Below, piece by piece: positions 1,746-34,851 of a DNA stretch of 59,998 bases. The translations under genes were made by a program, and so were the position numbers. Every line of letters begins with the position of its first letter. Within the stretch, counting starts at the first letter, position 1. This DNA comes from Fidelibacterota bacterium. GTDB taxonomy: Bacteria > Fidelibacterota > Marinisomatia > Marinisomatales > UBA1611. The stretch covers positions 1 through 59,998 of the forward strand of contig JABHAX010000013.1 of NCBI GenBank assembly GCA_018674095.1. The letters run 5' to 3'. A model generated the notes under the pieces. The model saw only the letters and a list, made by a program, of their open reading frames with translations. It ran no database searches and was not told the origin of the DNA.

Positions 1746-1754
1746 TAGGAAAAC

Positions 1755-3548: not shown

Positions 3549-3709
3549 AAAGGAAAATAATCATGAAAACTCTTTCACTAAAAAAGATCGCCCCCTGTTT
3601 AAACCGGCGAAAAAAAGAACAACGAAAATTGTCTCATTTAAATATTGAGAATTTTGATTTAACGGAATTTTTATTTCACAGAGAAAATAGAAACTAAGGA
3701 AAAAGCACT

Positions 3710-4837
3710 ATGTCTGAATCTGTAATTATTGATGCCGTTCGATCGCCCATTGGCGTAAAAAACGGAAACCTTGTTGGAATTCGCCCAGACGATCTAGCTG
3801 CCCAAGTGGTAAAAGGATTGTTAGCGCGGAATGAAAATGTTTCACCTGACAAAATCGAAGATCTTATTTTGGGATGTGCCTTTCCGGAAGGTCCCCAAGG
3901 AATGCTTATGGCAAAAGGTGTGGCCATTCTCGCAGGTATTCCAGAAACAACCGGTGGTGCTGTGGTGAATCGATTCTGTGGTTCTTCCATGGATGCGGTG
4001 CATCAAATTAGTACAAAAATTGAATCTGGCGATATTGAGGTAGGAATTGCAGCCGGAGTGGAAGATATGTTTTCCGTCCCCATGGGCGGATTCAATCCTG
4101 ATTTTCACCCCGAATTAGCCGAACAAGAATATTACATCGGTATGGGTGAAACTGCAGAAACTTTGGCTGAAGAAGGCAAAATTTCCCGAGATGCCCAGGA
4201 ACAATTTTCAGTGGAATCCCACAACAAAGCATTGGATGCTTTAGAAAATGACCGGTTCAATAATGAAATTATTCCCATTGATGTTTATGGTGAAGTCACT
4301 GTTGAAAAAGATGAAGGTCCAAGAGAACCCAATTTGGAAAAGATCCAAAGTTTGAATCCTGCATTTATTGAAAATGGCACTATTACTCCTGCCACTTCCA
4401 GCCCAATCTCCGTTGGTGCTGCTGCAATATTGATTACCAGCCGGGAATTCGCGGAAGCAAATGGGCTTACTATTCGCGCATCAATCAAAGGTCGATCTGT
4501 GGCCGGTGTGGATTGGAAAAGAATGGGCATCGGTCCCTTACCCGCAACTGAAAAAGTTTTAGCAAAAACAGGTCTCGCCATGAATGATATTGACGTAATT
4601 GAACTCAATGAAGCATTCTCTGCCCAATCACTTTATGTGATTCAAGAAGGTGGCTGGGACAAATCAAAAGTGAATTTGAATGGTGGTGCCATTGCTTTGG
4701 GACATCCACTGGGCTGCTCCGGAGCACGAATCATTACCACTTTGCTAAATGTTATGGAACAACAAGATGCAAAAACCGGTCTGGCCACTATGTGTATCGG
4801 CTCGGGACAAGGTATCGCAACCATTTTGGAACGATAA
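3710..4837 (+). CDS. Acetyl-CoA C-acyltransferase / 3-ketoacyl-CoA thiolase
   Basis: 375 aa; thiolase motifs NRFCGSSMDAV (nucleophilic Cys), NEAFSAQ, GHPLGCSGARI, CIGSGQG. Confidence 0.92.
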   Translation: MSESVIIDAVRSPIGVKNGNLVGIRPDDLAAQVVKGLLARNENVSPDKIEDLILGCAFPEGPQGMLMAKGVAILAGIPETTGGAVVNRFCGSSMDAVHQISTKIESGDIEVGIAAGVEDMFSVPMGGFNPDFHPELAEQEYYIGMGETAETLAEEGKISRDAQEQFSVESHNKALDALENDRFNNEIIPIDVYGEVTVEKDEGPREPNLEKIQSLNPAFIENGTITPATSSPISVGAAAILITSREFAEANGLTIRASIKGRSVAGVDWKRMGIGPLPATEKVLAKTGLAMNDIDVIELNEAFSAQSLYVIQEGGWDKSKVNLNGGAIALGHPLGCSGARIITTLLNVMEQQDAKTGLATMCIGSGQGIATILER

Positions 4838-5082
4838 GAACAGGGAAAATAAATACGATGAAAACCCAAAAAAATAACTACTCTAAAACCCCATTGTATT
4901 TCCTGTATGACCCGCCCCATCCATCTCTATCATGGTGGGCAAGTAGTGGAAAATGATTTTTTCGCAATGGATAAAACCGATTAATCCCCCTGTAATTGGG
5001 GGACAATAGAGGTCTTATAAATATGGACTTCATAAAACTCTATATATAATACAAATGTACACCAGCTTAAAAAGGATTAATT

Positions 5083-7428
5083 ATGTCACAAAAAATTGAA
5101 AAAGTAGCCGTACTCGGCGCAGGTATCATGGGCGCGCAAATTGCAGGACATCTTGCAAATGCGGGAATTCCATCCTATTTATTTGATATCAATGATGAGT
5201 TGGCAAAAAATGGAGTGGACTCACTCACGTCTTTAAAACCGGCTCCACTTTATAAACCAAAAAATGCAGAATTAGTAAAGCCTTGCACCTACGAAAATGA
5301 TATTGAAAAGATCGCAGAAGTAGACTGGGTTTTGGAAGCTGTCGTGGAACGACTAGATATTAAGGAGAAAGTTTATAATAGCCTTCTTCCTCATTTAAAG
5401 GATACTGCAATTCTTTCCTCCAATACATCTGGAATTCGATTAGCTGATTTGACAGCGTCTCTTCCCGATGATTTGAAAAAGCGTTTCATGATTACCCACT
5501 TTTTCAATCCACCAAGATATATGCAGCTTTTGGAATTGGTTCGTGGAGAACTAACCACCGATGACACTTATAATACCATGATCGAATTTGGTGAATCTAT
5601 ATTGGGAAAAGGTATAGTTCATGCCAAAGATACACCCAACTTTATCGGAAATAGAATTGGTGTGTATGGCATGATGACTACCATGAATCTTGCAATTCAA
5701 CAAGGTCTTACTGTAGAAGAAGTGGATAAATTGACGGGACCAATCACTGGACGACCCAAAAGCGCAACCTTCAGGACTGCTGATGTGGTTGGATTAGATA
5801 CAATGAGACACGTATCAAAAACAACCTATGAAAAAGCGTTAGATGATGAAGAACGGGACATGTTTAAAATTCCTGAAATTTTAAATCAACTCGTTGATTC
5901 AGGACGATTAGGACAAAAAACAAAAGCTGGTTTTTATAAAAAGAATGAAGACCGATCCATCCATTCTGTGGATTTTAAAACCGGTGAATATTCACCCCAG
6001 GAAAAAGTCCGCTTTGATTGTTTTCGAGTAGCAAAAGATCGACAAAAACTGCCAGATAAACTCAAAGCTCTTTGTTATGGGGACGATCGTGGCAGTAAAT
6101 ATTTTTGGGAAATTACTGCTAAAACATTGATCTACAGTGCCAACCGTATTCCAGAAATTTCAGACGATATTGTGAATATTGACAATGCCATGAGGTGGGG
6201 ATACGCCTGGGAAATGGGTCCATTTGAAAGTTGGGACGCCCTTGGCGTTCGAAAATCTGTAGATAGAATGAAAACTGAAGGAAAGAAAGTTCCTGATTGG
6301 GTTTTGGAAATGTTAGACTCAGGTCGTGAAACCTTTTATACAACTGAAAACGGTGAGCGAACATACTGGTGCCCCTCCGGTAAGCATCCCGTTACTATTG
6401 AACCCAATCCAAAAGTTTTGAATCTTGCTATTCATAAAACAAGTGGTAAAACACTGAAACGTGATTTAAGTGCCAGTATTAACGATTTAGGTGACGGCAT
6501 CTTGAATGTTGAATTCCATTCCATTCTTCAATCTACATTAAATCCGATTGATGGTTCTTATATTGAAATGATTAATCTTGCCCTTGATCTGATCGAAAAG
6601 GGCGATTATAAAGCCATGGTTTTGGGTCACCAAGGTCCGAATTTTTGTGCCGGTGCTAATTTGAATCTAATTTTGGAAGTATGCAAAAACCAAATGTGGG
6701 ATGAGTTGAATATGGCTATTAAAGTTCTTCAAGATACAACCCAGCGAATTCGGTTCTCTAAAGGTCCTGTTGTGGCGGCACCATTTCAGTTAACACTAGG
6801 TGGTGGCGTAGAACTTATCCAACCAGCAGCTCATCGCGTTGTGGCTGCGGAAACATACATGGGACTTGTAGAAGTGGGTGTTGGACTCATTCCCGGTGGT
6901 GGCGGAAATCTCCGTATGATCTTAAATGCCATGGATGGTGGGACAGGTCGCATGGGTGCTTTTCAGAAGATTCAAAAAATATTTGAAGTTGTTGGTTTTG
7001 CAAAAGTTGCGACCAGCGCTGATGAGGCAAAACATCTAGGTTATTTAAAAAAGGATGATACTATCATTCTTAATCGAGATCACTTAATTCAAACGGCAAA
7101 AGATAAAGCACTAGAATTGGCCGATGGATATGTACCACCAACTTATCGGGATGATCTTAAACTCCCCGGTGCCGGTGGACGAACTGCCATGTCTATGGCT
7201 TTAAAAGGTTTTAAGATGCAAGGGAAGATCTCTGATCATGATTTGAAGATTGGTGAAAAATTAGCCTACGTAATGACCGGTGGAGATAAAGCGGGACTCA
7301 CCAAAACAGTAGATGAACAATATATCCTGGATATTGAACGGGAAGCATTTATTTCTCTCTGTGGAGAAAAACTTTCCCAAGATAGAATCAGTTTTATGCT
7401 TAAAAAAGGAAAACCTTTGCGTAACTGA
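5083..7428 (+). CDS. Bifunctional 3-hydroxyacyl-CoA dehydrogenase / enoyl-CoA hydratase (FadN-type domain order)
   Basis: 781 aa; N-terminal Rossmann VAVLGAGIMGAQIA (HADH) and C-terminal crotonase-like FCAGANL...GGGVEL. The dehydrogenase domain comes first, as in Bacillus FadN rather than E. coli FadB. Confidence 0.9.
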   Translation: MSQKIEKVAVLGAGIMGAQIAGHLANAGIPSYLFDINDELAKNGVDSLTSLKPAPLYKPKNAELVKPCTYENDIEKIAEVDWVLEAVVERLDIKEKVYNSLLPHLKDTAILSSNTSGIRLADLTASLPDDLKKRFMITHFFNPPRYMQLLELVRGELTTDDTYNTMIEFGESILGKGIVHAKDTPNFIGNRIGVYGMMTTMNLAIQQGLTVEEVDKLTGPITGRPKSATFRTADVVGLDTMRHVSKTTYEKALDDEERDMFKIPEILNQLVDSGRLGQKTKAGFYKKNEDRSIHSVDFKTGEYSPQEKVRFDCFRVAKDRQKLPDKLKALCYGDDRGSKYFWEITAKTLIYSANRIPEISDDIVNIDNAMRWGYAWEMGPFESWDALGVRKSVDRMKTEGKKVPDWVLEMLDSGRETFYTTENGERTYWCPSGKHPVTIEPNPKVLNLAIHKTSGKTLKRDLSASINDLGDGILNVEFHSILQSTLNPIDGSYIEMINLALDLIEKGDYKAMVLGHQGPNFCAGANLNLILEVCKNQMWDELNMAIKVLQDTTQRIRFSKGPVVAAPFQLTLGGGVELIQPAAHRVVAAETYMGLVEVGVGLIPGGGGNLRMILNAMDGGTGRMGAFQKIQKIFEVVGFAKVATSADEAKHLGYLKKDDTIILNRDHLIQTAKDKALELADGYVPPTYRDDLKLPGAGGRTAMSMALKGFKMQGKISDHDLKIGEKLAYVMTGGDKAGLTKTVDEQYILDIEREAFISLCGEKLSQDRISFMLKKGKPLRN

Positions 7429-7528: not shown

Positions 7529-8782
7529 TCAAAAATGATATTCCAGCCCAAACTTCAAATGAGAGAAATCTTCCATGGAATAGAATTGGGTCCCCTCTTC
7601 ACCCATAAATTTTGAAACAGATAGATTTAATTTCAAATTATCCATAGGCGAATATTTCGCAGATACACCCAACATGGATTGGGAATCCTTTAAGTCCATA
7701 AATGTATTTCCTGAAAGCTCTAAAGCATCATCAAAGTAATTGGCAGAAGCTGAAAGCATCAATCCCAAATCGGAAAAAGATGCGAATGGAGTACCCATTC
7801 CGGGTATTAATTCGGGGAGAGTAGTTTGGACTAATCTAGTATAGCCTAAATCTTCCAAAGAAAATATCCCTTCTATATACCCAATCAATTGACTTGAAAG
7901 CATGATATCTGTTGATGTGGTGTATTCTATCTGTTCCGCATATTGGATATAGGTAGTATTATTAAAATAAGGCCTATCCAAATTCATATCTATGTGAGTT
8001 TTAAAACGAGCAATCTCAATTCGATTTGTGAATTCACCAATAAAGGAAACCAAATCAAATCCAATAACATTTGTTTTTCTATAAAAAAAGGATGGAATAT
8101 TAGCATTCATTCCAACATAAGTGAACGATCGATCTCTTCCATTAAAATATGAAAAACTAAAATCGCTGGACCCAAAAGTAGATTGAATTCTTATTCCAAA
8201 TTCGCTTCCCGCATTTACATCCATCAAGTCTGGAGCAGCTTCAGGTATATCCAATGGAAAGGCTTTTTCACCAAATGGATAGCGATTCCCTTCATGCTCT
8301 GGAATGTACACACCTTCTATCTGCGAGTCGTTCCAATAATATTTTGCCGAGCCAGATATAGTTCCAATTTTACGATCCGCCCCAGGAAGAAACATATAAT
8401 AATAATCATAGGGATTCAAATTATCGGTAGGGTTATTTCCATCTACCGCGCCCCAGGCATGGATCTGTTTCCCTAGCTTTACTTCCCCCCAGCTTGGATA
8501 CCATGTTAAATAGGCTTCTCGTATTTGAAGTTCATTTTCATTATTGGACCAGCGATATTCTAATGCAGAATTGGTCTTGATTTCAAAATCACCCGATGAG
8601 TAACCTACTTCTGCTTCTGCTAACCTAAATGGGAGTGAAATTTCTGATTGATCCGAGAGGCGGACCATATTTCCCGGATTAATTGAACCGGAATATGATA
8701 TTTGTCCGTGTAACTTCGCAAGGAGCAGTGGTACCAACAGTAGCAGGATCTTGAGTTGCAGCACAAAAATAATTTTTATCAT
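7529..8782 (-). CDS. Outer-membrane beta-barrel, DUF1302-like (copy A)
   Basis: 417 aa; signal peptide, LGKQIHAWGAVDGNNPTDNLNPYDYYYMF motif and C-terminal MEDFSHLKFGLEYHF (terminal Phe typical of OMPs). Clear paralog of 16994-18421. Confidence 0.6.
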   Translation of the reverse strand: MIKIIFVLQLKILLLLVPLLLAKLHGQISYSGSINPGNMVRLSDQSEISLPFRLAEAEVGYSSGDFEIKTNSALEYRWSNNENELQIREAYLTWYPSWGEVKLGKQIHAWGAVDGNNPTDNLNPYDYYYMFLPGADRKIGTISGSAKYYWNDSQIEGVYIPEHEGNRYPFGEKAFPLDIPEAAPDLMDVNAGSEFGIRIQSTFGSSDFSFSYFNGRDRSFTYVGMNANIPSFFYRKTNVIGFDLVSFIGEFTNRIEIARFKTHIDMNLDRPYFNNTTYIQYAEQIEYTTSTDIMLSSQLIGYIEGIFSLEDLGYTRLVQTTLPELIPGMGTPFASFSDLGLMLSASANYFDDALELSGNTFMDLKDSQSMLGVSAKYSPMDNLKLNLSVSKFMGEEGTQFYSMEDFSHLKFGLEYHF

Positions 8783-8815
8783 TTTCTATTTTTTTGAAAG
8801 AAATTTGTAATTATG

Positions 8816-8865
8816 TAAAACGTAATTATCTAACATCCTAAACTCCATTACATATTTACGTTTTA
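8816..8865 (-). other. 10 bp perfect inverted repeat (stem-loop) in the LolA-like/OMP intergenic spacer
   Basis: TAAAACGTAA (8816-8825) and TTACGTTTTA (8856-8865) are exact reverse complements, separated by 30 nt. Confidence 0.4.
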
Positions 8866-8890
8866 AATAATTATTATAATTTTTTATCAT

Positions 8891-9640
8891 CTATTTTTTC
8901 GGAAGACGCTTTAAGTTTTTTTCTTGAAATAATTTTTCTTCAATCCTAGAATCTACTTCTATATCTGAAAAAGTCACTTCAGTTGAATGTTGTTTTTGAA
9001 CGTCCTCAACAAAAACACGCTTCATTATATCGAAACCTTTCATATCTTTGAATTCATATTCTTTTTTCTTTTTTAATTCGCCTCGTTTATCAAAGGATTC
9101 TTCTTTCACACCCATGAGCGTTGATTTTTCTATCCATGATATGTGTTTTGTATAGGACGATTTCGCCGACTTTTTTGGAAGGATTTCCAGCACATAGCAA
9201 TCTTTGCCACCCACCGTTTCATCATCTAAACGCCTGTATTCATTTTCATCTAAATCTCGGCTGGATAAATCCTCATAACTCAAATCAGACCCCATGAATG
9301 CATCCCCTTTTTTCTTGGAAGAGATACGTCTTACTTTTTTAAATGCAGGGAGCCACATGCGCATTTCATCATCTTTACCCTCGTGTTCGATCTTTAAAAA
9401 TGCCACGCCTTTGTCATCTTTCGGTTTCAGAAACCAGCTGATTTGTTTTTTATTGCCATCCATGGATTTCGATACCATTGACAAGGATCTGGATTTACCT
9501 TTTTTATTGGTTAATACCATTTTAGTCGTATTGGACATATCATCTGGTGATGGTTTTTCATCTACCAATTTGGCTATTTCAAATCCTGTTTGTGAAAATA
9601 CATAACCTATGAGAAGAATGATGATTATGGGTTTTTTCAT
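8891..9640 (-). CDS. LolA-like outer-membrane lipoprotein-sorting / periplasmic lipid carrier protein (copy A)
   Basis: 249 aa; signal peptide; motif MWLPAFKKVRRISSKKKGDAFMGSDLSYEDLSSR matches my recollection of the LolA_like family. Paralog of 22737-23504. Confidence 0.65.
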   Translation of the reverse strand: MKKPIIIILLIGYVFSQTGFEIAKLVDEKPSPDDMSNTTKMVLTNKKGKSRSLSMVSKSMDGNKKQISWFLKPKDDKGVAFLKIEHEGKDDEMRMWLPAFKKVRRISSKKKGDAFMGSDLSYEDLSSRDLDENEYRRLDDETVGGKDCYVLEILPKKSAKSSYTKHISWIEKSTLMGVKEESFDKRGELKKKKEYEFKDMKGFDIMKRVFVEDVQKQHSTEVTFSDIEVDSRIEEKLFQEKNLKRLPKK

Positions 9641-9730
9641 AATAATTGTCCTTTTATTTAATTTAAGTATTTATGTTTTTAGGTGTTCGAGGGTTCAATG
9701 CATTAACGCATGAACACTTTATACTTATCA

Positions 9731-10726
9731 CTACCACCGAATCGCGGCTGATGCCCATGTATAACCGGCGCCAAAGGCTGCGAGAATTATTGTATCTCCT
9801 GCCTTGATTTTCCCTTCTTCCACAGCCTCACACAGTGCTATCGGGATAGATGCTGCCGTCGTATTCCCATATCTTTGAATATTAGCATAAAATTTATCCA
9901 TGTTTACGCCCATTCTTTTTGCAACAGATTGGATAATTCTCAAATTCGCTTGATGGGGAATAATCAATGCAACATCATCCATGGAGAGATTATTTTTATC
10001 CAACGCTTCTTGAATAACCTCGGGAAAACGAACCACTGCATTCTTAAATACTTCGCGTCCATTCATAAAGGGTTCATATCTCTGTGCTTGTTCTATGGTA
10101 AGTTTGTTAATTTGGTTTAAACCAGATGATCCAGGGCCTTCCATCCATAAGTTTTTCATATCTTTCCCCTCGCTATGTAAATGAGTGGATAAAATACCAG
10201 CTTCATCTTGGCTAGGTTGAAGAATGACCGCACCCGCTCCATCACCAAAAAGAACAGAAATATCTCTTCCTTCTGTCGTTTTATTAATGAATTTTGACTG
10301 TGCTTCTGCACCAATCACAAGAGCAGTTTTATACATCCCAGATTGAATAAATTGATCTGCTGTGGAAAGAGCGTAAACAAATCCTGAACATGCAGCACGT
10401 AAATCAAAACAGCCGACATTTCTCAAACCCAGCATTTCCTGGAGTTGTGAACTCACGCCTGGGAAAAAATAATCGCTTGAAATAGTTGCCACAACTACGA
10501 GATCAATTTCTTCAGGGTTTATACCAGCATTTTCTATTGCCTTCTTTGCTGCAGGAAACGCAAGGTCTGATGCAGCTTCGTCTCCTTGTACCCAATGTCG
10601 TTCTTCAATACCGGATCGTGTTTTGATCCACTCATCCGAAGTGTCCATTAATTCAGTTAAATCTTGGTTTGTTACTACTTGACTGGGGACGTGATAGCCT
10701 ATCCCTTTTATGGCGCTTCTGATCAT
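9731..10726 (-). CDS. fabH: 3-oxoacyl-ACP synthase III (KAS III, FabH-type), copy A
   Basis: 331 aa; canonical Cys-His-Asn triad contexts (AACSGFVYAL, IPHQANLRI, GNTTAASIP). The start lies 3 nt after the stop of the upstream MMPL gene. Confidence 0.88.
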   Translation of the reverse strand: MIRSAIKGIGYHVPSQVVTNQDLTELMDTSDEWIKTRSGIEERHWVQGDEAASDLAFPAAKKAIENAGINPEEIDLVVVATISSDYFFPGVSSQLQEMLGLRNVGCFDLRAACSGFVYALSTADQFIQSGMYKTALVIGAEAQSKFINKTTEGRDISVLFGDGAGAVILQPSQDEAGILSTHLHSEGKDMKNLWMEGPGSSGLNQINKLTIEQAQRYEPFMNGREVFKNAVVRFPEVIQEALDKNNLSMDDVALIIPHQANLRIIQSVAKRMGVNMDKFYANIQRYGNTTAASIPIALCEAVEEGKIKAGDTIILAAFGAGYTWASAAIRW

Positions 10727-10729
10727 TTG

Positions 10730-13045
10730 TTAACTCCGTCCAATTAATTTTTTCTTTAATGATTCCGCAAGAGCTGCAAGCACTGTGAGTGTTCCAAGAG
10801 ATGTGGACATCATGGCGAAAACCATCAATCCACCAATATATTGGATTGATAAAAATGCCGAAAATAATAATGCACCAAATCCCATGTTAGATGCAGCATC
10901 CAAGATAATAGGATATCCCACATCATCCACGACTTCCCTGCTCAATTTATCTGCTGATACTGTTCTGGACAAACGACGGAATTGGGCAATGTAGTGAATC
11001 GAAAAATCAACACCAACTCCAATGATGATGGAGGACAGGAGTGCCGTAATATGGCTTAACTCAATTCCGAAATAACCCATAAAACCGAAATTAATAATGA
11101 CGGCAGATGAAAGCGGAATGACTGCTAAGAAACCCCATAAAATTCGTTTAAAAAATATGGATGCAATTACACCAATTACAAATAACGAAAATGTAATACT
11201 AAAGATGGATGATTTAATAATTAAAGTTACCAAATCCCGAAAAACAACCATCATTCCTGTAACATTAATTTTTAATTCCGGATTAAAATTTTCATCAATA
11301 TAGGCATCTATTTTTTCAACATAGCTAAAAATATCATCTGTTGACATAATTTTGCTCAAAGCGGTAACTAAGCCCACTTCATAATTATAATCAACCATGG
11401 AAGAAAAATCATCAGGATCACCGGACATAGAATACATGGTAAAAAGGTTATTCACTTTTTCACGATTTTCAGGAATGGTTTCAAATGCAATATCATCATC
11501 CATCACCGTCCTGTGCATTTGTTCCACCACATTTCCGATGGAATAACTGATAGTTACTTTTTCATCTATTTCCATAAAGTCCTGAAGAGCAATCATATCA
11601 GCTAATGTCCCCGGATCTTTCATATCACCTTCGATTCGGGCTCGGATGTCCATGGTTCCTGTTAGTTCTTCATCCATGAAGTCCATGCTGTCCCGAATTT
11701 CCGTCCCGGGTTTGAACATGCTAGCCATATTCACATCCACGGTAACTTTCATTAATCCAAACAAGCCTATGATGACAAAAATTGCCCCTGAAGAAAAAAC
11801 ATACTTTGGGTGACTCAGAACAAGTTTACCTAATTTATCGATCCCTCGTTCAAATAAACTGGGTTTGGATATAGCATTTGAATTAGCATCCCACTTTAAT
11901 AAACTAATGACAGCAGGCAACATCAGCGAACTCAAAAACCAAGCCCAAGTGATGCCCACACCAATGGTGACACCATAGCCAATCATGGGTTCTAACGGAG
12001 ATGAGATCATGGTTAAAAAAGCTGCGATTGTCGTAATGCTCGTTAAAAAGATGGGAATTAGCAAAGAATCCATGGTGGAAGCAACTGCGAGCCGAACATC
12101 ATTTTTTGAACGGAGTTCTTTAAAATATTTGGTCACAACATGAACACCATCCGAATTTGCAATCGTCAAAAGAATAATTGGCATGGACGTATTAGCCATA
12201 GTAAAAAGAAATCTTTCTGAACCCGTAAGTCGATAAATCCACCCCATAAAACCCATCATTGCAACGAGTGATAAACCTATCACCATCATAACCAAAGCCA
12301 CGCCTTTTGGGCTTCTCAAGTTTAGAAGCAGTATGGAAACCATGATCAGCATACCCATTTTCATAAGGCCTTGTACATCTTCTCGAATCATTTCTGGCAT
12401 GGTTCCGGTTACATAGGCATTCCCACCATAATGAATTTCATATCCTTTTAGAATCGGTTTAGTAATCGCAACCACTTCATTTCGGAAAACATCTAATCCT
12501 TTCGTATCATATGGTTGAATGATAACAACAATGTATTCATCTTTTTCACTGATGAGTCTAGTTTTAATTGTTTTATTCCGATCAAGATAATCCTTTATAT
12601 TATCTACATCTACTTGTGATAATTCCCGATCCGGTTGAAGATCGCCAACCTCCATAAATCCATCAATATTATCCATACGATTCATTCGAGAAACACTGGT
12701 GACTTCTTCAACTTTTTGTGAAGTTTCCAATTGGTCTGCCAAATCCCATGCTGTGGCAAATGCATCAGGCGTAAAAATCGTTTTATTTTTATGACCGAAA
12801 GCGATAAAAATCATTTCAGTACTTCCAAATTCATCTTGAAGTGCATCCCAAGACAAACGAGACTCTAAGTTTTTAGGAAGCATTTTCATGACATCATCAT
12901 CCACGACAAAAAATTGGAGTCCAAATCCCATGATAATTGTTGCGATAACAGACAATATAATAACGCGTATTGGGCGGTCTAAACTTTGGCGAATGAACCA
13001 TTGCCTTACAGGGTGATCAGAATAATTAAGTAGCGTGTTTTTCAT
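10730..13045 (-). CDS. RND-superfamily exporter, COG1033/MMPL (HpnN-like) type, copy A
   Basis: 771 aa; two 6-TM bundles with large soluble loops; motifs ANSDGVHVVTKY and GVGVDFSIHYIAQF. Paralog of 23808-26096. Confidence 0.85.
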   Translation of the reverse strand: MKNTLLNYSDHPVRQWFIRQSLDRPIRVIILSVIATIIMGFGLQFFVVDDDVMKMLPKNLESRLSWDALQDEFGSTEMIFIAFGHKNKTIFTPDAFATAWDLADQLETSQKVEEVTSVSRMNRMDNIDGFMEVGDLQPDRELSQVDVDNIKDYLDRNKTIKTRLISEKDEYIVVIIQPYDTKGLDVFRNEVVAITKPILKGYEIHYGGNAYVTGTMPEMIREDVQGLMKMGMLIMVSILLLNLRSPKGVALVMMVIGLSLVAMMGFMGWIYRLTGSERFLFTMANTSMPIILLTIANSDGVHVVTKYFKELRSKNDVRLAVASTMDSLLIPIFLTSITTIAAFLTMISSPLEPMIGYGVTIGVGITWAWFLSSLMLPAVISLLKWDANSNAISKPSLFERGIDKLGKLVLSHPKYVFSSGAIFVIIGLFGLMKVTVDVNMASMFKPGTEIRDSMDFMDEELTGTMDIRARIEGDMKDPGTLADMIALQDFMEIDEKVTISYSIGNVVEQMHRTVMDDDIAFETIPENREKVNNLFTMYSMSGDPDDFSSMVDYNYEVGLVTALSKIMSTDDIFSYVEKIDAYIDENFNPELKINVTGMMVVFRDLVTLIIKSSIFSITFSLFVIGVIASIFFKRILWGFLAVIPLSSAVIINFGFMGYFGIELSHITALLSSIIIGVGVDFSIHYIAQFRRLSRTVSADKLSREVVDDVGYPIILDAASNMGFGALLFSAFLSIQYIGGLMVFAMMSTSLGTLTVLAALAESLKKKLIGRS

Positions 13046-13649
13046 TATAAATATTTATAGCTTTTAATCCTTTTTCGTTAAAAATCCCTCGAGCTACAAT
13101 TTGGACAAATCCATGGATAGTATCTCGAATTGGGAGATCATTTTGGAGAAAGAATTCGGGTTGAAATGTGGAATTAATAATATTGATATAAACAATGGAC
13201 ATCGTTCTCATGTTGATTTCTTCACGCGCAAAACTTTGCTCTTGCGCATTTTTTAATATCGTATAAAAATCATCTTGATGCCCTAATCGGAATGCTTCTA
13301 CTTCTTTCCATATTTGGGGATATTGCGATTTGAGTTCTGCCAGATGGTTTACCGGGGTTCTACCCGCAAATTTGGAAATGTTTTCCATAATTTTCACAAA
13401 TTGAACAGCTGGATTAGGCTCATCTTTCATGACCGTTTCAAATACACCATTTATTTGTTCAAAAATATAAAGAATAATAGAATGAATTAAATTTTCTTTC
13501 GTAGGAAAGTGTTTATAAATCGTTTTTTTACTCATAGAGAGACGCTTTGCAAGCGATTCTACTGTAAAAGCACGAACGCCTGAGTTTGAAACAGACTCAA
13601 AGCCCTCGCCCAATATTTGATTTAATTGTTGATAATTTTTCACGGGCAA
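13026..13649 (-). CDS. TetR/AcrR-family transcriptional regulator
   Basis: 207 aa; HTH FTVESLAKRLSMSKKTIYKHFPTKENL. Non-ATG start (TTG 13649 or GTG 13643). Overlaps the MMPL start by 20 nt. Confidence 0.8.
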   Translation of the reverse strand: MPVKNYQQLNQILGEGFESVSNSGVRAFTVESLAKRLSMSKKTIYKHFPTKENLIHSIILYIFEQINGVFETVMKDEPNPAVQFVKIMENISKFAGRTPVNHLAELKSQYPQIWKEVEAFRLGHQDDFYTILKNAQEQSFAREEINMRTMSIVYINIINSTFQPEFFLQNDLPIRDTIHGFVQIVARGIFNEKGLKAINIYNEKHAT

Positions 13650-13650
13650 T

Positions 13651-13678
13651 GGAAACGATTTGCGTTTATATCGTTTCC
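13651..13678. promoter_or_regulatory. Perfect 9 bp dyad abutting the tetR start (candidate TetR operator)
   Basis: GGAAACGAT-N10-ATCGTTTCC, 2 nt upstream of the TTG start at 13649. No T-tract follows on the minus strand, so an intrinsic terminator is less likely. Confidence 0.4.
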
Positions 13679-13724
13679 AAACTTACAAATGTATTTATAA
13701 GAAAAAGGAATAAATATTTGAATT

Positions 13725-15179
13725 TTAGTTATTTATTATTGTTTGAAGTAGCATGATGACATCCGTGATAGTTACTGAACCATCACCATTATAATCTGCT
13801 GGGGGTGTCGATGTATATCCAAATCCGGAAGCCATATCTGCTACATGTAAAACATCTATAATATTAATGGATCCATCAAAATTCACATCGCCTAAAGTAA
13901 AATCAGGAAATCCACCGCCTAAATAATCCATGGGGAATTTTTGTCCACGTGCTATGAAAAACTGTGATCCACCGTATGTGTGACTCCATACTGTTTCATG
14001 ATCTTCTGTGACTTCGAACATTTTACCACTATCACAATCAGTAATAAAAGTATTTCCGTTGGGTAAGCGGTAAGCACCACCCTGCATTTGAGTATGGAAA
14101 GAACCAGAATGCATCCAAATTGGTTCATCTGGACCAAAGGGTTCATTGAGGGAAATATCATATAGCCCGTTACCGTTTAATGGAGGAATTAATTCAAAAA
14201 CAGCAGCCGTAGTATTCCCACCGTAATTATTATTGAATAAGATTAGATTTCCTGCGCCGGGATATCCTTCAGGAATCCAATTCACGCCATGTTGACCGGC
14301 AAGAAGATGATCTGAATTTGTCCCGCGATCATAGGCTTGCGGATTTCCCCATCGAAACAAATAATCACCACCCATTCCAGAGTTTCCTCCAGAATGACTC
14401 GCCGCTTCTTCTGTTGTAGTACTGTGATCGATAATATAAATCTCATCATGATGTCTGGAAGAAATGACGATTTGGTCTAAAACTTCATTGTAAGCAACAG
14501 CATTATAATGTTTCCAATCTCCGTTTGGGCCTCCGGGACCTTGGTTGCTTCCAGCACTTCCATAATTCACATCCTGCAATTCAGGATGATTTTCAATCAC
14601 ACCATAATTATCTAAATTTGGGTTCATATTCTGAATTAGATGGTCCCAAATGTGCCATTCCCAGATAATATTGACTTCATTTGTTCCCACCGGTTCAATT
14701 TCAAGAATAGCTTCTGCCCACATTTCGTTCAAAGAATTATCAATGGATTGACGACCAACAGCATAAGCTTCTGTGTCCGTTTTCTTTTCCCAGAGAATTA
14801 CGAGGATATTTCCATTTGGTAGTGGTTCAATATCATGATGGTGCTGATAGGTGTCATTAGCAAATTCATAAGACCAAAGAAGATCTCCGTCCCAATTGTA
14901 AGTTGAGATTCCGCCGCCAACGCCGCCAGCAGACATGGATGGATTTTGGACTTTATAAGGATAAATCAACGTGCTATCCTCCAATAAATAAGCCATACTT
15001 GCAGCACCGCGAGGGTGGCTCCAAGAATTAATAACATCTAAATCATTATCAACCAAAAAGGTTGAGAATCCATCACCACTATTTCCACCTTGTGTAGGAG
15101 AAAACAGTGTCATGCCGTTAAATACTTGTCCAAAAAGTTGACACGTAATAAATAGAAAAATAATTATGAATCGTTTCAT
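13725..15179 (-). CDS. ASST-like (aryl-sulfate sulfotransferase family) beta-propeller with C-terminal dockerin
   Basis: 484 aa; signal peptide; HHHDIEPLPNGNILVILWE, WHIWDHL and DWKHYNAVAYNEVLDQIVISSRHHDEIYIID resemble ASST-family motifs. The C-terminus has two Ca-loop repeats, DVNFDGSINIID and DYNGDGSVTITD (type I dockerin). Confidence 0.6.
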   Translation of the reverse strand: MKRFIIIFLFITCQLFGQVFNGMTLFSPTQGGNSGDGFSTFLVDNDLDVINSWSHPRGAASMAYLLEDSTLIYPYKVQNPSMSAGGVGGGISTYNWDGDLLWSYEFANDTYQHHHDIEPLPNGNILVILWEKKTDTEAYAVGRQSIDNSLNEMWAEAILEIEPVGTNEVNIIWEWHIWDHLIQNMNPNLDNYGVIENHPELQDVNYGSAGSNQGPGGPNGDWKHYNAVAYNEVLDQIVISSRHHDEIYIIDHSTTTEEAASHSGGNSGMGGDYLFRWGNPQAYDRGTNSDHLLAGQHGVNWIPEGYPGAGNLILFNNNYGGNTTAAVFELIPPLNGNGLYDISLNEPFGPDEPIWMHSGSFHTQMQGGAYRLPNGNTFITDCDSGKMFEVTEDHETVWSHTYGGSQFFIARGQKFPMDYLGGGFPDFTLGDVNFDGSINIIDVLHVADMASGFGYTSTPPADYNGDGSVTITDVIMLLQTIINN

Positions 15180-15312: not shown

Positions 15313-16395
15313 TTGGCACTTAAACGCATATTCAAAGTTTACACCGTTATCGGTAAAACGTTCGGCGCATGGATTTCACCAATATTTACGGGAATTGCCA
15401 TTGTTACGTTGCGCATTTTTGTATGGTTTGGGCAACAAATCGATAAAGTAATTTTTCCCGGTTTTAATCAGGCTCTAGAGAATCCCATTCTTATCGTAGG
15501 AAATCCAAGATCAGGGACAACCTTCCTGCACAGATTTTTAATCAAGAATGGATTTGGTGTAGGCTCTCAACTCTGGCAAATGGTGTATCCATCCATTTCT
15601 ATCCAAAAAGTCTTAAAGCCATTTTTACCCATCATGGAATTTATAAGTCCAGCTAAACATCATTCAACAGAAGCACATGAAACAAGCCTTTCATCTGTAG
15701 AAACGGATGATGTTTCACTTTTATTCCGATTTTTTGATGGATTCTTCTTGTACGGTTTTTTCCTTACATTCGATGAAAAAGATTTATTTGATTGGGTGGA
15801 CCCGAAAATTCGGAATACGTCAAAAAGAGATTTTGACTGGTTCGAGTCCATGTGGAAACGAAATTTGACATCGAACAATGGGCAGCGCTATATAGGAAAA
15901 CTTTTTAGTTTAAGTGGGAATCTTCCAGCGTTTCAAGAAAAATTCCCGGATGCAAAAATCCTTTATATGATTCGAGATCCATTGAGTGTAATTCCATCCG
16001 GATTAAGTTTAGTCACAGGTGTATTAGATAAAAAGTTTGGTTTTTGGTCTTTAGATGAAAAAATTCAAGAACGATTTATATCTAGACTTTATAAAGCCCT
16101 GGTTGAATTACTTACGAGGTTTCATGATGATTGGACCCACGATAGAATTGATAAAGAAAAAGTATTAATCGTCCGTTTTGATACCATGATGACTCAATTT
16201 GAATCTTTAATGAAACGAATCTCAGACTTCACTCAACACGAAATGACGGATGAACTAAGAAAGATTGTCCAAATTACAGCCGAAAATCAAAGAGGTTTTG
16301 AAAGTGGACATCGTTACGATTTAGAAAAATTTGGTCTTACTGAATCGCAAATTCGCCAAGATTGTGAAAAGATTTATCGAACTTTCTTAATTTAA
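15313..16395 (+). CDS. PAPS-dependent sulfotransferase with N-terminal membrane anchor
   Basis: 360 aa (TTG start); 5'-PSB-like loop GNPRSGTTFLHRFL and 3'-PB-like YMIRDPLSVIPS; N-terminal hydrophobic segment FGAWISPIFTGIAIVTLRIFVWF. Confidence 0.7.
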   Translation: MALKRIFKVYTVIGKTFGAWISPIFTGIAIVTLRIFVWFGQQIDKVIFPGFNQALENPILIVGNPRSGTTFLHRFLIKNGFGVGSQLWQMVYPSISIQKVLKPFLPIMEFISPAKHHSTEAHETSLSSVETDDVSLLFRFFDGFFLYGFFLTFDEKDLFDWVDPKIRNTSKRDFDWFESMWKRNLTSNNGQRYIGKLFSLSGNLPAFQEKFPDAKILYMIRDPLSVIPSGLSLVTGVLDKKFGFWSLDEKIQERFISRLYKALVELLTRFHDDWTHDRIDKEKVLIVRFDTMMTQFESLMKRISDFTQHEMTDELRKIVQITAENQRGFESGHRYDLEKFGLTESQIRQDCEKIYRTFLI

Positions 16396-16399
16396 AAAA

Positions 16400-16990
16400 A
16401 TGAAAAAACTTCTTAGTCTGTTTTTATTAAATCAATTATTCGCTTTGGACCTTCACGGCATTGAATTATTATCAAACTGGGAAATTTTAAAGGATGAAAC
16501 CATTCAAATTTCTTGGCAAAACTATCAAGGTTTTCCCGTTAGCAAAGCAGAAACAATTTTAAATCATTCTATCAAAGATGTATCTTTTGCGATTCAAGAT
16601 TTGGATCATTATCCGGAAATTTTTGACCGCGTTACTCAAACAATTCGACTTGAAAAAGATGTGATTCAAATTGTATTAGATATGCCTTTCCCTTTTGATG
16701 GACGAGATTACATTGTAAAATATTCTATTGAAAATCAAGACAATTATTGGGTTTTTGCTTATTCGTCAGTAGAACACCCAAAAGGAAGATTAGAACAAGA
16801 TCATGTTCGTCTCCCCAATGCTGGGGGAATTTGGATCCTGGAAAAAGTTAATGAATCTCAAACAAAAATTGTTTACGCATGGAATGGTGAATTATTAGGA
16901 AATTTTCCCGATATAGCTTTAACCCGCGCTTGGGTCACACAAGGAACGGAAGTATTGAATTGGCTGGATGAATTTCTTACTGCAAAATAA
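16400..16990 (+). CDS. Secreted START/SRPBCC-like lipid-binding protein
   Basis: 196 aa; signal peptide MKKLLSLFLLNQLFA. The pattern MPFPFDGRDYIVKY ... HVRLPNAGGIWILE ... TKIVYAWNGELLGNFP resembles the START fold. It starts 4 nt after the sulfotransferase stop and ends 3 nt before the OMP gene. Confidence 0.5.
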   Translation: MKKLLSLFLLNQLFALDLHGIELLSNWEILKDETIQISWQNYQGFPVSKAETILNHSIKDVSFAIQDLDHYPEIFDRVTQTIRLEKDVIQIVLDMPFPFDGRDYIVKYSIENQDNYWVFAYSSVEHPKGRLEQDHVRLPNAGGIWILEKVNESQTKIVYAWNGELLGNFPDIALTRAWVTQGTEVLNWLDEFLTAK

Positions 16991-16993
16991 ATT

Positions 16994-18421
16994 ATGACTA
17001 AAATCACTCCAATTTTTCTCCTAGCCTATTTGCTTGGAAGTGAACCATCTTTTGATATGAATGGCTATGTTGATTTTGCCCATATTTCAAGGTTATCAGA
17101 CTATTCTCTGATTGACATCCCTTTTCGAATGAGCGCCATAGATTTTTCCCATCAAAGTGAGAATATTTCACTTAACGGGAATTTCACATTGGAATATCAA
17201 ACCAGATCTGATGCTTATTTTTTAGGCTCTAAGGACCCACAAGATTTCCGATTGGACATGAGAGAGCTCTATACAACTTATAACAGTGACAATTTTGAAT
17301 TTCGGATGGGCAAGCAAATTCACTCATGGGGCAGCGTAGATGAAAATAGCCCAGTGGATAATGCCAGCGCATTTGATTATTATTATATTTTCTTTTTGGG
17401 TCGAGAACGAAAAATGGCGACCTTATCTGGTGCTCTGGATTACTATATAGGTAATCTAAAATTGAATGCCGTTTTCTCTCCAATTCATACTACGAATCGG
17501 ATCCCGTTGGGCGATGACCATTTCCCTATTTCACTTCCCATTTATCCCGAAGAATCTCAAATATTTACTATTTCGGAACTCCCATTTGAAGGCGGAATAC
17601 AAAGCACCTATTCTTTTGGGATGGGGGAAATATCTGCTTCTTACTATTCCGGATTTGATCGTGTCTTTAATTTTTCCGGTGTTAATGTTTACAGCAATGG
17701 AAGTCAAACCATATTTTCACCACCAGATCTCGTTTTCGGGTATCGAAAAACAAATGTCCTTGGATTTGGTCTAACATTTCTAAATCCATTTTTCATATTT
17801 CGCGGGGACTTCGCCCAGTTTAATACCCTGGATTTGAATGAATCCATCGACCGTCCATATTCAAATAGCAATTTGGCAGCCATTTACGATACTTTGGTTT
17901 TAAGTTTTCCTCTTCGTGAAAAAGCAAATTATCGACAAACGACTTTGCAAATAGAAACGGAACTTCCCTTTCAAATTAATTTTGTGGGTCAAATTTTTTC
18001 ACACGAAATAACTTCCTTTTCATCGGACACATTGCCAGATGTAGAAATAGATATTCCAGGTTTTGAATTTGACCCAGATTCCATGACGCCTGAAAATTTC
18101 TTCACACCGGGGATGGGTGTCCCTTTAGCAATTTTAACGAATAAAGCTGCCATCTTAATTTTGGATAAAACTTTTATGAATGAGCAACTCAACGTTTCTT
18201 TTACAACCATGCTGGACCTTGGCGATTATGAAGGCGTGGAAAGCATTTCTGGTTCATTAACGGAATACAAAATTGAATATAATATAACCCAGGATTTTTT
18301 AGGAATACTGGGTGTGACGAAAGTCATAGGATCAAAAGATCATCCGGATGGCGAACAATACCAGTTTAATAAAATGGAAGATTTTTCCCATTTCCGTTTT
18401 GAATTAAAATATTATTTTTAA
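16994..18421 (+). CDS. Outer-membrane beta-barrel, DUF1302-like (copy B)
   Basis: 475 aa; MGKQIHSWGSVDENSPVDNASAFDYYYIFF and C-terminal MEDFSHFRFELKYYF. Paralog of 7529-8782. Confidence 0.6.
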   Translation: MTKITPIFLLAYLLGSEPSFDMNGYVDFAHISRLSDYSLIDIPFRMSAIDFSHQSENISLNGNFTLEYQTRSDAYFLGSKDPQDFRLDMRELYTTYNSDNFEFRMGKQIHSWGSVDENSPVDNASAFDYYYIFFLGRERKMATLSGALDYYIGNLKLNAVFSPIHTTNRIPLGDDHFPISLPIYPEESQIFTISELPFEGGIQSTYSFGMGEISASYYSGFDRVFNFSGVNVYSNGSQTIFSPPDLVFGYRKTNVLGFGLTFLNPFFIFRGDFAQFNTLDLNESIDRPYSNSNLAAIYDTLVLSFPLREKANYRQTTLQIETELPFQINFVGQIFSHEITSFSSDTLPDVEIDIPGFEFDPDSMTPENFFTPGMGVPLAILTNKAAILILDKTFMNEQLNVSFTTMLDLGDYEGVESISGSLTEYKIEYNITQDFLGILGVTKVIGSKDHPDGEQYQFNKMEDFSHFRFELKYYF

Positions 18422-18432
18422 TATAAATTTTA

Positions 18433-18602
18433 GCCACCAAGATCGCGAATGTTCACGAAGGGAAAAAATGATATTTATATTGTCAATCGAAAGAAATGTA
18501 AACGCAAAGGCGCAAAGATTCATAACTAAAGTATTTGATCCGCTTAATGAATTGATAATTCAGAAATTTGATTATTTAGTGTATCTTAGCGTCCTTAGTG
18601 GC
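18433..18602. repeat. Imperfect inverted repeat built from degenerate 9-mers (NCNCNAAG units)
   Basis: Left arm GCCACCAAGATCGCGAATGTTCACGAAG (18433-18460). Centre ACGCAAAGGCGCAAAG (18502-18517). The right arm 18575-18602 reads GCCACTAAGGACGCTAAGATACACTAAA on the opposite strand, 19/28 identical to the left arm. Confidence 0.55.
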
Positions 18603-18616
18603 ACTATAAAACCTAT

Positions 18617-22707: not shown

Positions 22708-22736
22708 GGTAATTAAACAATAAAAGATGAAATAGG

Positions 22737-33560: not shown

Positions 33561-33583
33561 ACTATCTCCATTTGGTTTTTAGA

Positions 33584-34771: not shown

Positions 34772-34823
34772 AAATTCGTTTTAGATCAATATATTTTCGA
34801 CATGACACTTAATAAAATACCCC

Positions 34824-34851
34824 ATTAGTAACTATCTTATAAGCTACTAAT
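34824..34851. promoter_or_regulatory. 28 bp dyad ATTAGTAACT-N8-AGCTACTAAT (candidate operator), site 1
   Basis: 9/10 self-complementary arms. It begins 53 nt upstream of the pfp start (34771), in the divergent pfp/acetoacetyl-CoA synthetase spacer. Same dyad, spacing and distance as 38934-38961. Confidence 0.55.

What the first reader, a model, noticed from the sequence alone, without database searches (positions are those of the whole stretch)
7529..13649. Compact five-gene operon tetR-MMPL-fabH-LolA-like-OMP with a canonical FabH embedded in a transporter operon
All five genes are on the minus strand. Spacings from tetR down to the OMP gene are -20, 3, 90 and 108 nt. The KAS III here has fully canonical FabH motifs (AACSGF, HQAN, GNTTAAS). 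Housekeeping fabH normally sits with plsX/fabD/fabG, none of which are present in this window. A FabH placed 3 nt after an RND pump gene suggests that a primer-selecting condensing enzyme feeds a lipid that the pump handles. A TetR would sense the lipid or its acyl-CoA.
Basis: partly seen in the sequence, partly recalled or inferred. Interest (0 to 1): 0.65.

Follow-up and report, generated by a model that had tools for sequence, protein, structure and literature searches.

The report
Ordinary fabH transplanted into lipid-transporter operon
In one clade of the uncultured marine phylum Marinimicrobia, the ordinary gene that starts fatty-acid synthesis (fabH) has been inserted into an older, repressor-controlled operon for a membrane-to-outer-membrane lipid transporter; this is a real and conserved arrangement, but it looks like a relocated housekeeping gene and not a dedicated enzyme that feeds the pump.

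Summary
Five minus-strand genes (TetR, HAE3/MMPL RND pump, FabH, LolA-like protein, DUF1302-like beta-barrel) have spacings of -20, 3, 90 and 108 nt, and the FabH is canonical. The window comes from a Marinimicrobia (SAR406) bacterium.

Comparison of about 45 related loci shows that the conserved unit is TetR-MMPL-LolA-like-OMP with a conserved palindromic operator. In most relatives the MMPL and LolA-like genes abut (-8 to +5 nt) with no fabH between them. fabH sits between them only in one clade (FabH 73-100% identical; 12 of 12 relatives examined).

That FabH clade is monophyletic and nested inside the phylum's own FabH family. Elsewhere the family sits in a phylum-wide ZnRib-RecJ-FabH-ACAD-PgpH-like-YbeY-MazG locus, never with plsX/fabD/fabG. 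Catalytic, CoA, ACP and pocket residues are unchanged.

A monophyletic set of native loci has lost fabH. It includes a genome whose flanking genes group with the window's clade.

My reading is that this is the housekeeping FabH, moved or replaced into a lipid-transport operon and now under its TetR. I could not show directly that it is the only fabH. The "dedicated primer enzyme for the pump's cargo" idea is not supported, but it is not excluded.

The parts
13650..13679 (.). Candidate TetR operator: a perfect inverted repeat, TGGAAACGAT-N10-ATCGTTTCCA, directly abutting the tetR start codon.
   Evidence: It is the only match in the window, against 0.04 expected by chance. GGAAACG-N14-CGTTTCC is conserved upstream of tetR (or of MMPL) in about 19 related loci, with or without fabH. 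Upstream of native fabH loci there are no plausible matches: only four 2-mismatch hits in 1.28 Mb, which I read as chance.
13026..13649 (-). TetR-family regulator (207 aa, TTG start). Its stop overlaps the MMPL start by 20 nt.
   Evidence: PF00440 at 38.6 bits. Orthologues at 45-76% identity precede MMPL in relatives.
10730..13045 (-). HAE3/MMPL-type RND inner-membrane transporter (771 aa).
   Evidence: PF03176 at 83 bits. TIGR00921 HAE3 at 171 bits is the best NCBIfam hit but falls below its 351.9 cut-off. PDB matches to HpnN and Dispatched are only distant. Orthologues at 51-87% identity occur in 42 Marinimicrobia loci.
9731..10726 (-). Canonical FabH (KAS III, 331 aa). It starts 3 nt after the MMPL stop, with a GGAG motif 7 nt upstream of the ATG.
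   Evidence: TIGR00747 at 394.6 bits against a 292.1 cut-off. E. coli FabH structures match at E=4e-87. The Cys113/His258/Asn288 triad, the ACP-docking Arg, and the CoA-binding Trp and Arg are all conserved. dN/dS is about 0.05-0.08, although dS is saturated.
9641..9730 (-). 90-nt spacer between fabH and the LolA-like gene. It holds a degraded copy of a GTGTTCA...TGAACAC hairpin that is strong in close relatives, followed by an AAGGA ribosome-binding site.
   Evidence: Fold energies: L091 -21.6 kcal/mol (z=-5.9); window copy -9.8 kcal/mol (z=-1.1).
8891..9640 (-). Periplasmic LolA-like protein (249 aa) with a signal peptide and no lipobox Cys.
   Evidence: PF17131 at 184 bits. PDB sequence matches: 9tp6 at E=2.9e-35, 3bk5 at 3.9e-32 and 4z48 at 1e-27, all LolA-superfamily.
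8783..8890 (-). 108-nt spacer between the LolA-like and OMP genes, holding an AU-rich hairpin.
   Evidence: -17.2 kcal/mol, z=-2.9. The consensus scan called no terminator here.
7529..8782 (-). Outer-membrane beta-barrel, DUF1302-like (417 aa), with a signal peptide. It is convergent with the FadB gene.
   Evidence: PF06980 at 25.9 bits against a 23.2 cut-off. The AF2 model (pLDDT 65.5, pTM 0.65) has roughly twenty predicted beta-strands after a signal helix. Foldseek best matches are porins, AlgE and Occ channels at TM about 0.5. A paralogue lies at 16994-18421, 31% identical.

Best explanation
The locus is a TetR-controlled envelope-spanning transport cassette for lipids or other hydrophobic compounds. 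It comprises an HAE3/MMPL RND pump in the inner membrane, a LolA-like periplasmic carrier and a DUF1302-like outer-membrane barrel. The cassette is old and widespread in Marinimicrobia.

In the ancestor of one clade (the window's), a copy of the phylum's ordinary fabH was inserted between the pump gene and the LolA-like gene, splitting a previously translationally coupled pair.

FabH here does what FabH always does. It condenses a short acyl-CoA primer with malonyl-ACP to start type II fatty-acid synthesis. It is probably the cell's main or only FabH, because the ancestral RecJ-FabH-ACAD locus has lost fabH in the lineage to which these genomes appear to belong.

The consequence is regulatory and not biosynthetic: initiation of fatty-acid synthesis is now co-transcribed with the lipid transporter and sits behind its TetR operator.

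Status of each step:
- Shown: the gene identities, the insertion, its clade restriction, the origin within the phylum's FabH family, the conserved operator, and the loss of fabH from a clade of native loci.
- Inferred: co-transcription, the TetR ligand (a lipid or acyl-CoA), the transporter's cargo and direction, and the claim that this is the sole fabH.
For: Cassette is ancestral and fabH is an insertion:
- 42 Marinimicrobia loci carry MMPL orthologues. fabH lies between MMPL and LolA-like only in L091, L092, L096 and L098, plus L135-137, L256, L257 and L260.
- In non-fabH loci, MMPL and LolA-like are separated by -8 to +5 nt.
- The operator GGAAACG-N14-CGTTTCC is conserved with or without fabH.

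Origin of the FabH:
- The in-operon FabHs form one clade (NJ bootstrap 0.97) inside the Marinimicrobia FabH radiation, without a long branch. They group with the native FabHs of one subgroup (0.97).
- All share the phylum-specific insertion seen.
- Native context: ZnRib-RecJ-FabH-ACAD-PgpH-like-YbeY-MazG in about 90 loci, including a complete chromosome.
- Genomes whose cassette lacks fabH carry FabH at the native locus. Matched contig prefixes include DKQT01, JABGZQ01, DKLW01, JACNKN01, JADFRD01 and CALEPA01.

Loss of fabH from the native locus:
- Native loci lacking fabH form one clade.
- They are abundant in metagenomes.
- One of them (L235, CAYOJL01) belongs to a genome whose FadB, thiolase, ASST and sulfotransferase genes group with the fabH-in-operon genomes.

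No sign of a new function:
- Catalytic, CoA, ACP and pocket residues are identical to native FabHs. Only 5 clade-specific columns exist, and none is a known functional site.
- Purifying selection is comparable to that on the neighbouring genes.
- Unrelated genes occupy the same junctions in other lineages.
Against: - The native RecJ/ACAD locus of a genome that carries the in-operon fabH was never retrieved. Two scans and an accession-proximity trick failed. "Sole fabH" is therefore inferred.
- The one genome linking the two data sets (CAYOJL01) has fabH at neither place, so a third location exists in at least that lineage, or the MAG is chimeric or incomplete.
- The arrangement has been kept with tight spacing (-8 to +56 nt) across a clade as divergent as 73% FabH identity. 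That also fits a selected functional coupling.
- A second, divergent KAS III sits next to a paralogous barrel 8 kb away, so a KAS III-barrel adjacency occurs twice in this region.
- All trees are single-gene NJ trees.
- Co-transcription is not shown.
Confidence: 0.6

Rival explanations
1. Dedicated second FabH. The clade keeps a housekeeping fabH elsewhere, and this copy primes a special fatty acyl chain for a lipid that the MMPL/LolA-like/barrel system carries to the outer membrane, with the TetR sensing that lipid or its acyl-CoA.
For: - The tight, long-conserved placement of a cytoplasmic enzyme gene inside an operon of envelope proteins.
- Neighbouring lipid genes: a beta-oxidation operon, a second KAS III with a paralogous barrel and a sulfotransferase, and a second MMPL/LolA-like pair.
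- At least one related genome (CAYOJL01) must keep fabH at a third, unknown place, so extra locations exist.
Against: - The cassette functions without fabH in most of the phylum.
- There is no substitution in catalytic or pocket residues, no long branch, and only 5 clade-specific columns outside known sites.
- It scores as plain FabH and far below the DarB/StlD models: 58-65 bits against cut-offs of 450-550.
- No other biosynthetic genes (acyltransferase, ACP, reductase) are in the operon.
- No genome with both copies was seen.
Confidence: 0.2
2. Neutral hitch-hiker. The operon junctions are simply permissive landing sites. fabH landed there by chance, is expressed adequately from read-through or an internal promoter, and the position has no regulatory or functional meaning.
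For: - Different unrelated genes sit at the same junctions in other lineages: GH114-dockerin, 23S-IVP, ZIP, cupin and a TonB-type receptor.
- The native fabH neighbourhood (RecJ, ACAD) is also functionally arbitrary, and in some sublineages RecJ has left it too.
Against: - The 3-nt gap (range -8 to +56) after the pump gene leaves little room for an independent promoter.
- The operator-controlled promoter is the only conserved upstream signal.
- An essential gene placed behind a repressor is unlikely to be regulation-neutral.
- The arrangement is stable across the whole clade (12 of 12 relatives).
Confidence: 0.15

Closest known systems
AmeABCD of Castellaniella defragrans and the DUF1302/DUF1329/BNR/RND (COG1033) clusters of Shewanella, Kangiella and Pseudomonas
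   Same: Both have an HAE3-family RND pump encoded with a LolA-superfamily periplasmic protein and a DUF1302-type outer-membrane barrel. The genes are cofit or co-expressed and linked to hydrophobic compounds or fatty esters, and in P. putida the DUF1302/DUF1329 pair lies near fatty-acid catabolic genes (PMC6394551; bioRxiv 10.1101/072470; bioRxiv 10.1101/2020.07.04.188060). Here too the cassette lies beside a beta-oxidation operon.
   Different: - There is no AmeC/BNR (Ycf48-like) component.
- The periplasmic protein is the short PF17131 type (249 aa), not DUF1329 (about 450 aa).
- The barrel is 417 aa with only a marginal DUF1302 score.
- The gene order differs.
- A TetR with a palindromic operator is part of the unit.
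- One clade carries fabH inside the operon. I found no report of such an arrangement.
HpnN (hopanoid) and BstA (sterol) HAE3 lipid transporters
   Same: They are the best NCBIfam neighbours of the pump after the generic HAE3 model. They move membrane lipids from the inner membrane towards the outer membrane.
   Different: Scores are far below the family cut-offs (85 against 752; 49 against 1100). No hopanoid or sterol synthesis genes are nearby. HpnN works without an operon-encoded periplasmic protein or barrel (PMC6394551).
Housekeeping FabH (E. coli FabH, PDB 1HN9/6X7R), usually in plsX-fabHDG-acpP clusters in Proteobacteria and Firmicutes
   Same: The whole protein aligns at E=4e-87. It has the same catalytic triad and the same CoA- and ACP-binding residues.
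   Different: The genomic context differs. In this phylum fabH is never with plsX/fabD/fabG in the loci seen. It is either after RecJ or, in this clade, inside the transporter operon. It also has a phylum-specific insertion of about 10 residues before the His region.
Specialised KAS III enzymes (DarB/StlD, PqsD, OleA, PA3286-type shunt enzymes)
   Same: They share the thiolase-fold KAS III and often sit in dedicated operons.
   Different: FabH here scores 58-65 bits against the DarB/StlD models (cut-offs 450-550). PqsD structures score well below FabH structures (212 bits against 296). It meets the FabH cut-offs instead.

Membership tests
FabH / KAS III (TIGR00747, NF006829) | Whole-protein score above the curated cut-off | tested here: met
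   394.6 bits against 292.1, and 413.8 bits against 249. The window's second KAS III (18617-19582) fails both: 207.5 and 224.2 bits.
FabH / KAS III (TIGR00747, NF006829) | Cys-His-Asn catalytic triad, the ACP-docking Arg (E. coli R249), and the CoA-binding Trp32 and Arg36 | tested here: met
   C113, H258, N288, R263, W33 and R37 are present. The triad, R249 and R36 equivalents are invariant in all 14 in-operon and 74 native Marinimicrobia FabHs. W32 is present in 13 of 14 in-operon sequences and in all native ones; the exception is one long-branch sequence.
FabH / KAS III (TIGR00747, NF006829) | Condenses acetyl- or short acyl-CoA with malonyl-ACP; complements a fabH mutant | not testable with these tools
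   This needs an enzyme assay or complementation.
FabH / KAS III (TIGR00747, NF006829) | Being the housekeeping (single) copy of the genome | tested here: inconclusive
   No genome of the clade could be scanned whole. A clade of native loci without fabH exists, and one of them belongs to a genome that groups with the window's clade. The direct link failed.
HAE3 family of RND transporters (TIGR00921; Pfam MMPL) | Score above the family cut-off | tested here: inconclusive
   Pfam MMPL passes at 83.3 bits against 20.5. TIGR00921 is the best NCBIfam hit over the full length (27-759) but, at 171 bits, lies below its 351.9 cut-off.
AmeABCD-type HAE3 cassette | DUF1302 outer-membrane protein encoded in the cassette | tested here: met
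   PF06980 at 25.9 bits against 23.2, which is marginal. PF06980 is precomputed on many orthologues. The model is a beta-barrel.
AmeABCD-type HAE3 cassette | DUF1329 LolA-superfamily periplasmic protein | tested here: inconclusive
   The main match is PF17131 LolA_like (184 bits). DUF1329 reaches 33.7 bits for the whole protein, but no single stretch passes. The superfamily is the same but the family and size differ.
AmeABCD-type HAE3 cassette | BNR/Ycf48-like periplasmic protein (AmeC, COG4447) | tested here: not met
   No such domain occurs in the operon or in any window ORF of at least 100 aa.
TetR-family local repressor | N-terminal TetR HTH domain and a palindromic operator at its own promoter | tested here: met
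   PF00440 at 38.6 bits. A perfect 10-bp inverted repeat abuts the start codon and is conserved in about 19 loci. Binding and ligand are not testable here.
DarB/StlD, PqsD and OleA specialised KAS III | Score above the family cut-off | tested here: not met
   NF053539 DarB at 58.3 bits against 550; NF005293 at 65 bits against 450.

The most novel reading that the evidence does not exclude
In an abundant oceanic Marinimicrobia clade, the only initiator of fatty-acid synthesis has been captured by a lipid-export operon. A lipid- or acyl-CoA-sensing TetR would then set membrane-lipid synthesis and lipid delivery to the outer membrane together. FabH might even work in physical or functional partnership with the RND pump. 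This would be a previously undescribed way of coupling FAS II initiation to envelope lipid transport. The intra-phylum replacement of the native gene, suggested by the conflict between the FabH tree and the flanking-gene trees, would show that the coupling was selected.
Probability: 0.15. Interest if true: 0.6.

Novelty: new variant of a known kind. Interest (0 to 1): 0.35.

Why it matters
HAE3/LolA-like/DUF1302 cassettes are widespread, but their cargo is unknown. A natural case in which the essential first enzyme of fatty-acid synthesis is wired behind the cassette's repressor is a strong hint that the cassette handles the cell's own membrane lipids and not xenobiotics. It also offers a regulatory hypothesis that can be tested with the TetR, its 28-bp operator and acyl-CoAs.

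The case is also a clean example of an essential gene leaving a phylum-wide conserved locus and being re-housed. That matters for context-based function prediction: here "fabH next to a pump" most likely does not mean a specialised pathway.

If it is simply a relocated housekeeping gene, the finding is of modest, mainly evolutionary, interest.

Tried and rejected
1. A search for the window's own species in the genome collection found nothing.

2. I tried three ways to retrieve the RecJ/ACAD native locus of a genome carrying the in-operon fabH:
- A RecJ query.
- A steered PgpH-like alignment query.
- Matching GenBank protein-accession blocks between FabH and ACAD cluster members.
None linked the two. 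One reason is that the only matching pattern fails on some members of the fabH-less clade (RNRWSEGI).

3. Sample co-occurrence of fabH-less native-locus contigs with window-type contigs showed no shared samples.

4. Extending the window contig 9 kb upstream found no fab genes.

5. GC content did not discriminate between the groups.

6. The MMPL tree cannot serve as a species proxy, because it is incongruent with the native-locus identities.

7. The operator motif has no plausible match upstream of native fabH loci, so this TetR is not a general fab regulator.

8. The apparent split fabH in UBA7303 is a 320-N masked run and not a pseudogene.

9. The sigma-70 promoter scan found fewer sites than in shuffled sequence and is not informative for this group.

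10. Literature searches for fabH in MMPL/HAE3 operons or in Marinimicrobia found nothing relevant.

Full report
**Observation**

- OMP, 7529-8782
- LolA-like, 8891-9640
- FabH, 9731-10726
- MMPL, 10730-13045
- TetR, 13026-13649

The spacings are -20, 3, 90 and 108 nt.

Profile searches confirm the families:
- TetR_N.
- MMPL, with the HAE3 model TIGR00921 as the best full-length NCBIfam match (171 bits, below its cut-off).
- A FabH well above both curated FabH cut-offs (TIGR00747 394.6 against 292.1).
- LolA_like PF17131 at 184 bits.
- A marginal DUF1302 hit at 25.9 bits against 23.2.

The quoted motifs are present. No plsX, fabD or fabG domain occurs in any window ORF of at least 100 aa.

The exact FabH protein is indexed in 220 metagenome blocks. 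The ten places shown all have identical synteny, so this is a real, abundant marine organism. The closest genomes are Marinimicrobia (SAR406, Neomarinimicrobiota, Fidelibacterota).

**What is conserved and what is not**

I used the pump as a probe and recovered 42 Marinimicrobia loci with orthologues at 51-87% identity. Mapping the window's proteins onto them shows the recurrent unit is (TetR)-MMPL-LolA-like-(OMP). It usually lies between an arylsulfotransferase gene and a convergent FadB-thiolase-ACAD-tetR beta-oxidation operon.

In about 30 of these loci the LolA-like gene follows the pump directly. Where I measured the junction it is -8 to +5 nt in most, that is, translationally coupled.

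fabH lies between the two genes only in L091, L092, L096 and L098. It also does so in every further relative that I reached through the FabH protein itself: P0005, P0008, P0011, P0013, P0014 and P0015. Together with the window's own population, that makes 12 of 12 members examined of a FabH clade spanning 73-100% identity.

In these loci the pump-fabH gap is -8 to +56 nt and the fabH-LolA gap is 53-92 nt. Some of the longer spacers hold a hairpin.

A perfect inverted repeat, TGGAAACGAT-N10-ATCGTTTCCA, abuts the tetR start codon. Its core, GGAAACG-N14-CGTTTCC, is conserved at the same place in about 19 loci regardless of fabH. It has no plausible match at native fabH loci.

The regulatory unit (TetR, operator, pump, carrier, barrel) therefore predates the arrival of fabH.

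**Where fabH normally lives in this phylum**

The FabH homologue list is a smooth continuum from 100% to 62% identity. Nearly every named hit is Marinimicrobia. At 68% identity the context switches to ZnRib-RecJ-FabH-ACAD-(PgpH-like 7TM-HD)-YbeY-MazG.

Two further scans recovered about 90 such loci across the phylum, including a complete chromosome. The plsX-fabHDG expectation therefore does not apply here.

Genomes whose cassette lacks fabH have FabH at this native locus. Contig prefixes match between and 30/36: DKQT01, JABGZQ01, DKLW01, JACNKN01, JADFRD01, CALEPA01 and others.

**Origin of the in-operon copy**

In NJ trees the in-operon FabHs form one clade (bootstrap 0.97). The clade is nested inside the Marinimicrobia FabHs, has no long stem, and groups with the native FabHs of one subgroup (0.97).

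They share the phylum's characteristic insertion before the His region. The catalytic triad, the ACP-docking Arg, the CoA-binding Trp and Arg, and the pocket residues match those of native FabHs. Only five clade-specific columns exist, none at a known functional site. Pairwise dN/dS is about 0.05-0.08, similar to the neighbouring genes, although dS is saturated.

This is an ordinary FabH.

**Is it the only one?**

Six native loci lack fabH: L235, L239, L240, L241, L242 and L243. In L241 and L242 RecJ abuts ACAD; in L235, L239 and L243 ZnRib does; L240 is cut by the contig end. They form a single clade in an ACAD plus PgpH-like tree.

The same fabH-less arrangement is abundant in metagenomes at 83% and 93% ACAD identity.

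L235 comes from the same assembly (CAYOJL01) as cassette locus L114. L114's FadB, thiolase, arylsulfotransferase and sulfotransferase genes group with the fabH-in-operon genomes, not with the subgroup whose FabH is closest.

Taken together, this suggests that the window's lineage lost fabH from the native locus and now relies on the in-operon copy. The conflict between the FabH tree and the flanking-gene trees further suggests that the copy came from another Marinimicrobia subgroup and replaced the native gene.

The caveats are serious:
- I never retrieved the native locus of a genome that carries the in-operon fabH.
- CAYOJL01 itself has fabH at neither place.
- All trees are single-gene NJ trees.
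- MAGs can be chimeric.

I put "sole or main fabH" at roughly 0.6.

**Mechanism**

The pump is an HAE3-type RND protein. The characterised members of that family move hopanoids or sterols towards the outer membrane or export monoterpenes (PMC6394551).

The 249-aa protein is a secreted LolA-superfamily carrier. The 417-aa protein is a signal-peptide-bearing outer-membrane barrel.

The closest described systems are AmeABCD and the cofit DUF1302/DUF1329/BNR/RND clusters. Those have been linked to hydrophobic substrates, fatty esters or export of an envelope component (PMC6394551; bioRxiv 072470; bioRxiv 2020.07.04.188060).

The Marinimicrobia cassette differs from them in four ways. It lacks the BNR protein, uses the short PF17131 carrier, includes a TetR, and sits by a beta-oxidation operon with a FadR-like TetR.

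I infer that it shuttles a lipid or hydrophobe across the periplasm under control of a lipid- or acyl-CoA-responsive TetR. In this clade, fabH transcription rides on the same promoter.

Other lineages carry unrelated genes at the same junctions: GH114-dockerin, 23S-IVP, ZIP, cupin and a TonB-type receptor. The junctions are therefore permissive, and adjacency alone does not prove a shared pathway.

**Verdict**

The operon and TetR parts of the interpretation are supported. The "primer-selecting enzyme feeding the pump's lipid" part is not supported by the comparative evidence, although it is not excluded.

It is a new variant of a known but poorly understood cassette type, of moderate interest (0.35). 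A one-line hmmsearch on any complete genome of the clade would settle the main open point.

Noticed in passing
window 15313-19582 (+): An apparent operon of sulfotransferase, a 196-aa unknown, a 475-aa paralogue of the operon's barrel (31% identical), and a second, divergent KAS III. That KAS III has the Cys/His/Asn triad but scores below all FabH cut-offs. The operon is conserved in several relatives (L096, L112, L135-137). A KAS III-barrel adjacency therefore occurs twice within 12 kb. It may be a sulfated-lipid pathway.
   Followed up: partly
window 19583-26096 (-): A second HAE3 pump (762 aa, TIGR00921 at 283 bits) is followed by a 104-aa unknown, a second LolA-like protein, an arylsulfotransferase with a T9SS sorting tail, and an LRR protein with a T9SS tail.
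   Followed up: no
window 13725-15179 (-) and 20644-22707 (-): Two arylsulfate sulfotransferase (ASST) homologues flank the lipid-transport genes. One carries a dockerin domain and the other a T9SS C-terminal domain. Their position next to the cassette is conserved in many relatives.
   Followed up: no
window 1155-7428 (+): A beta-oxidation operon (FadR-like TetR, acyl-CoA dehydrogenase, a 44-aa ORF, thiolase, FadB) is convergent on the barrel gene. This neighbourhood is conserved across much of the phylum.
   Followed up: partly
loci L138-L255 (for example L138 4438-13761): A phylum-wide conserved locus: ZnRib(CT398-like)-RecJ-FabH-ACAD-PgpH-like 7TM-HD-YbeY-MazG. RecJ and/or FabH have been lost from it in particular sublineages. 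In L241 the RecJ reading frame is interrupted.
   Followed up: partly
L134 9302-12290; L118 9453-11330; L135 9823-13282: Unrelated genes are inserted at the cassette's internal junctions in other lineages. L134 has a GH114-dockerin gene between the pump and the carrier, and ZIP plus cupin genes between the carrier and the barrel. L118 has a 23S-rRNA-IVP protein and a cupin. L135 has a TonB-type receptor and a 383-aa unknown.
   Followed up: partly
fabH-LolA spacers: L091 4942-5033, L136 9000-9076, L256 2973-3055; window 9641-9730: A GTGTTCA...TGAACAC hairpin lies downstream of fabH. It is strong in close relatives (L091 -21.6 kcal/mol, z=-5.9) but decayed in the window. It could be an mRNA-processing or stability element, or a remnant of the insertion.
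   Followed up: partly
window 45903-50112 (-): A run of lipid-related genes: class-V aminotransferase, fatty-acid desaturase, PAF-acetylhydrolase-like lipase and a TMEM164-family membrane protein.
   Followed up: no
window 32541-38881: A glycolysis cluster: class-I fructose-bisphosphate aldolase, a phosphofructokinase, and two tandem GAPDH genes (36864-37865 and 37862-38881).
   Followed up: no
L041 10333-10652: The apparent split of fabH in MAG UBA7303 is a 320-base run of N (masked or a scaffold gap), not a frameshift.
   Followed up: yes
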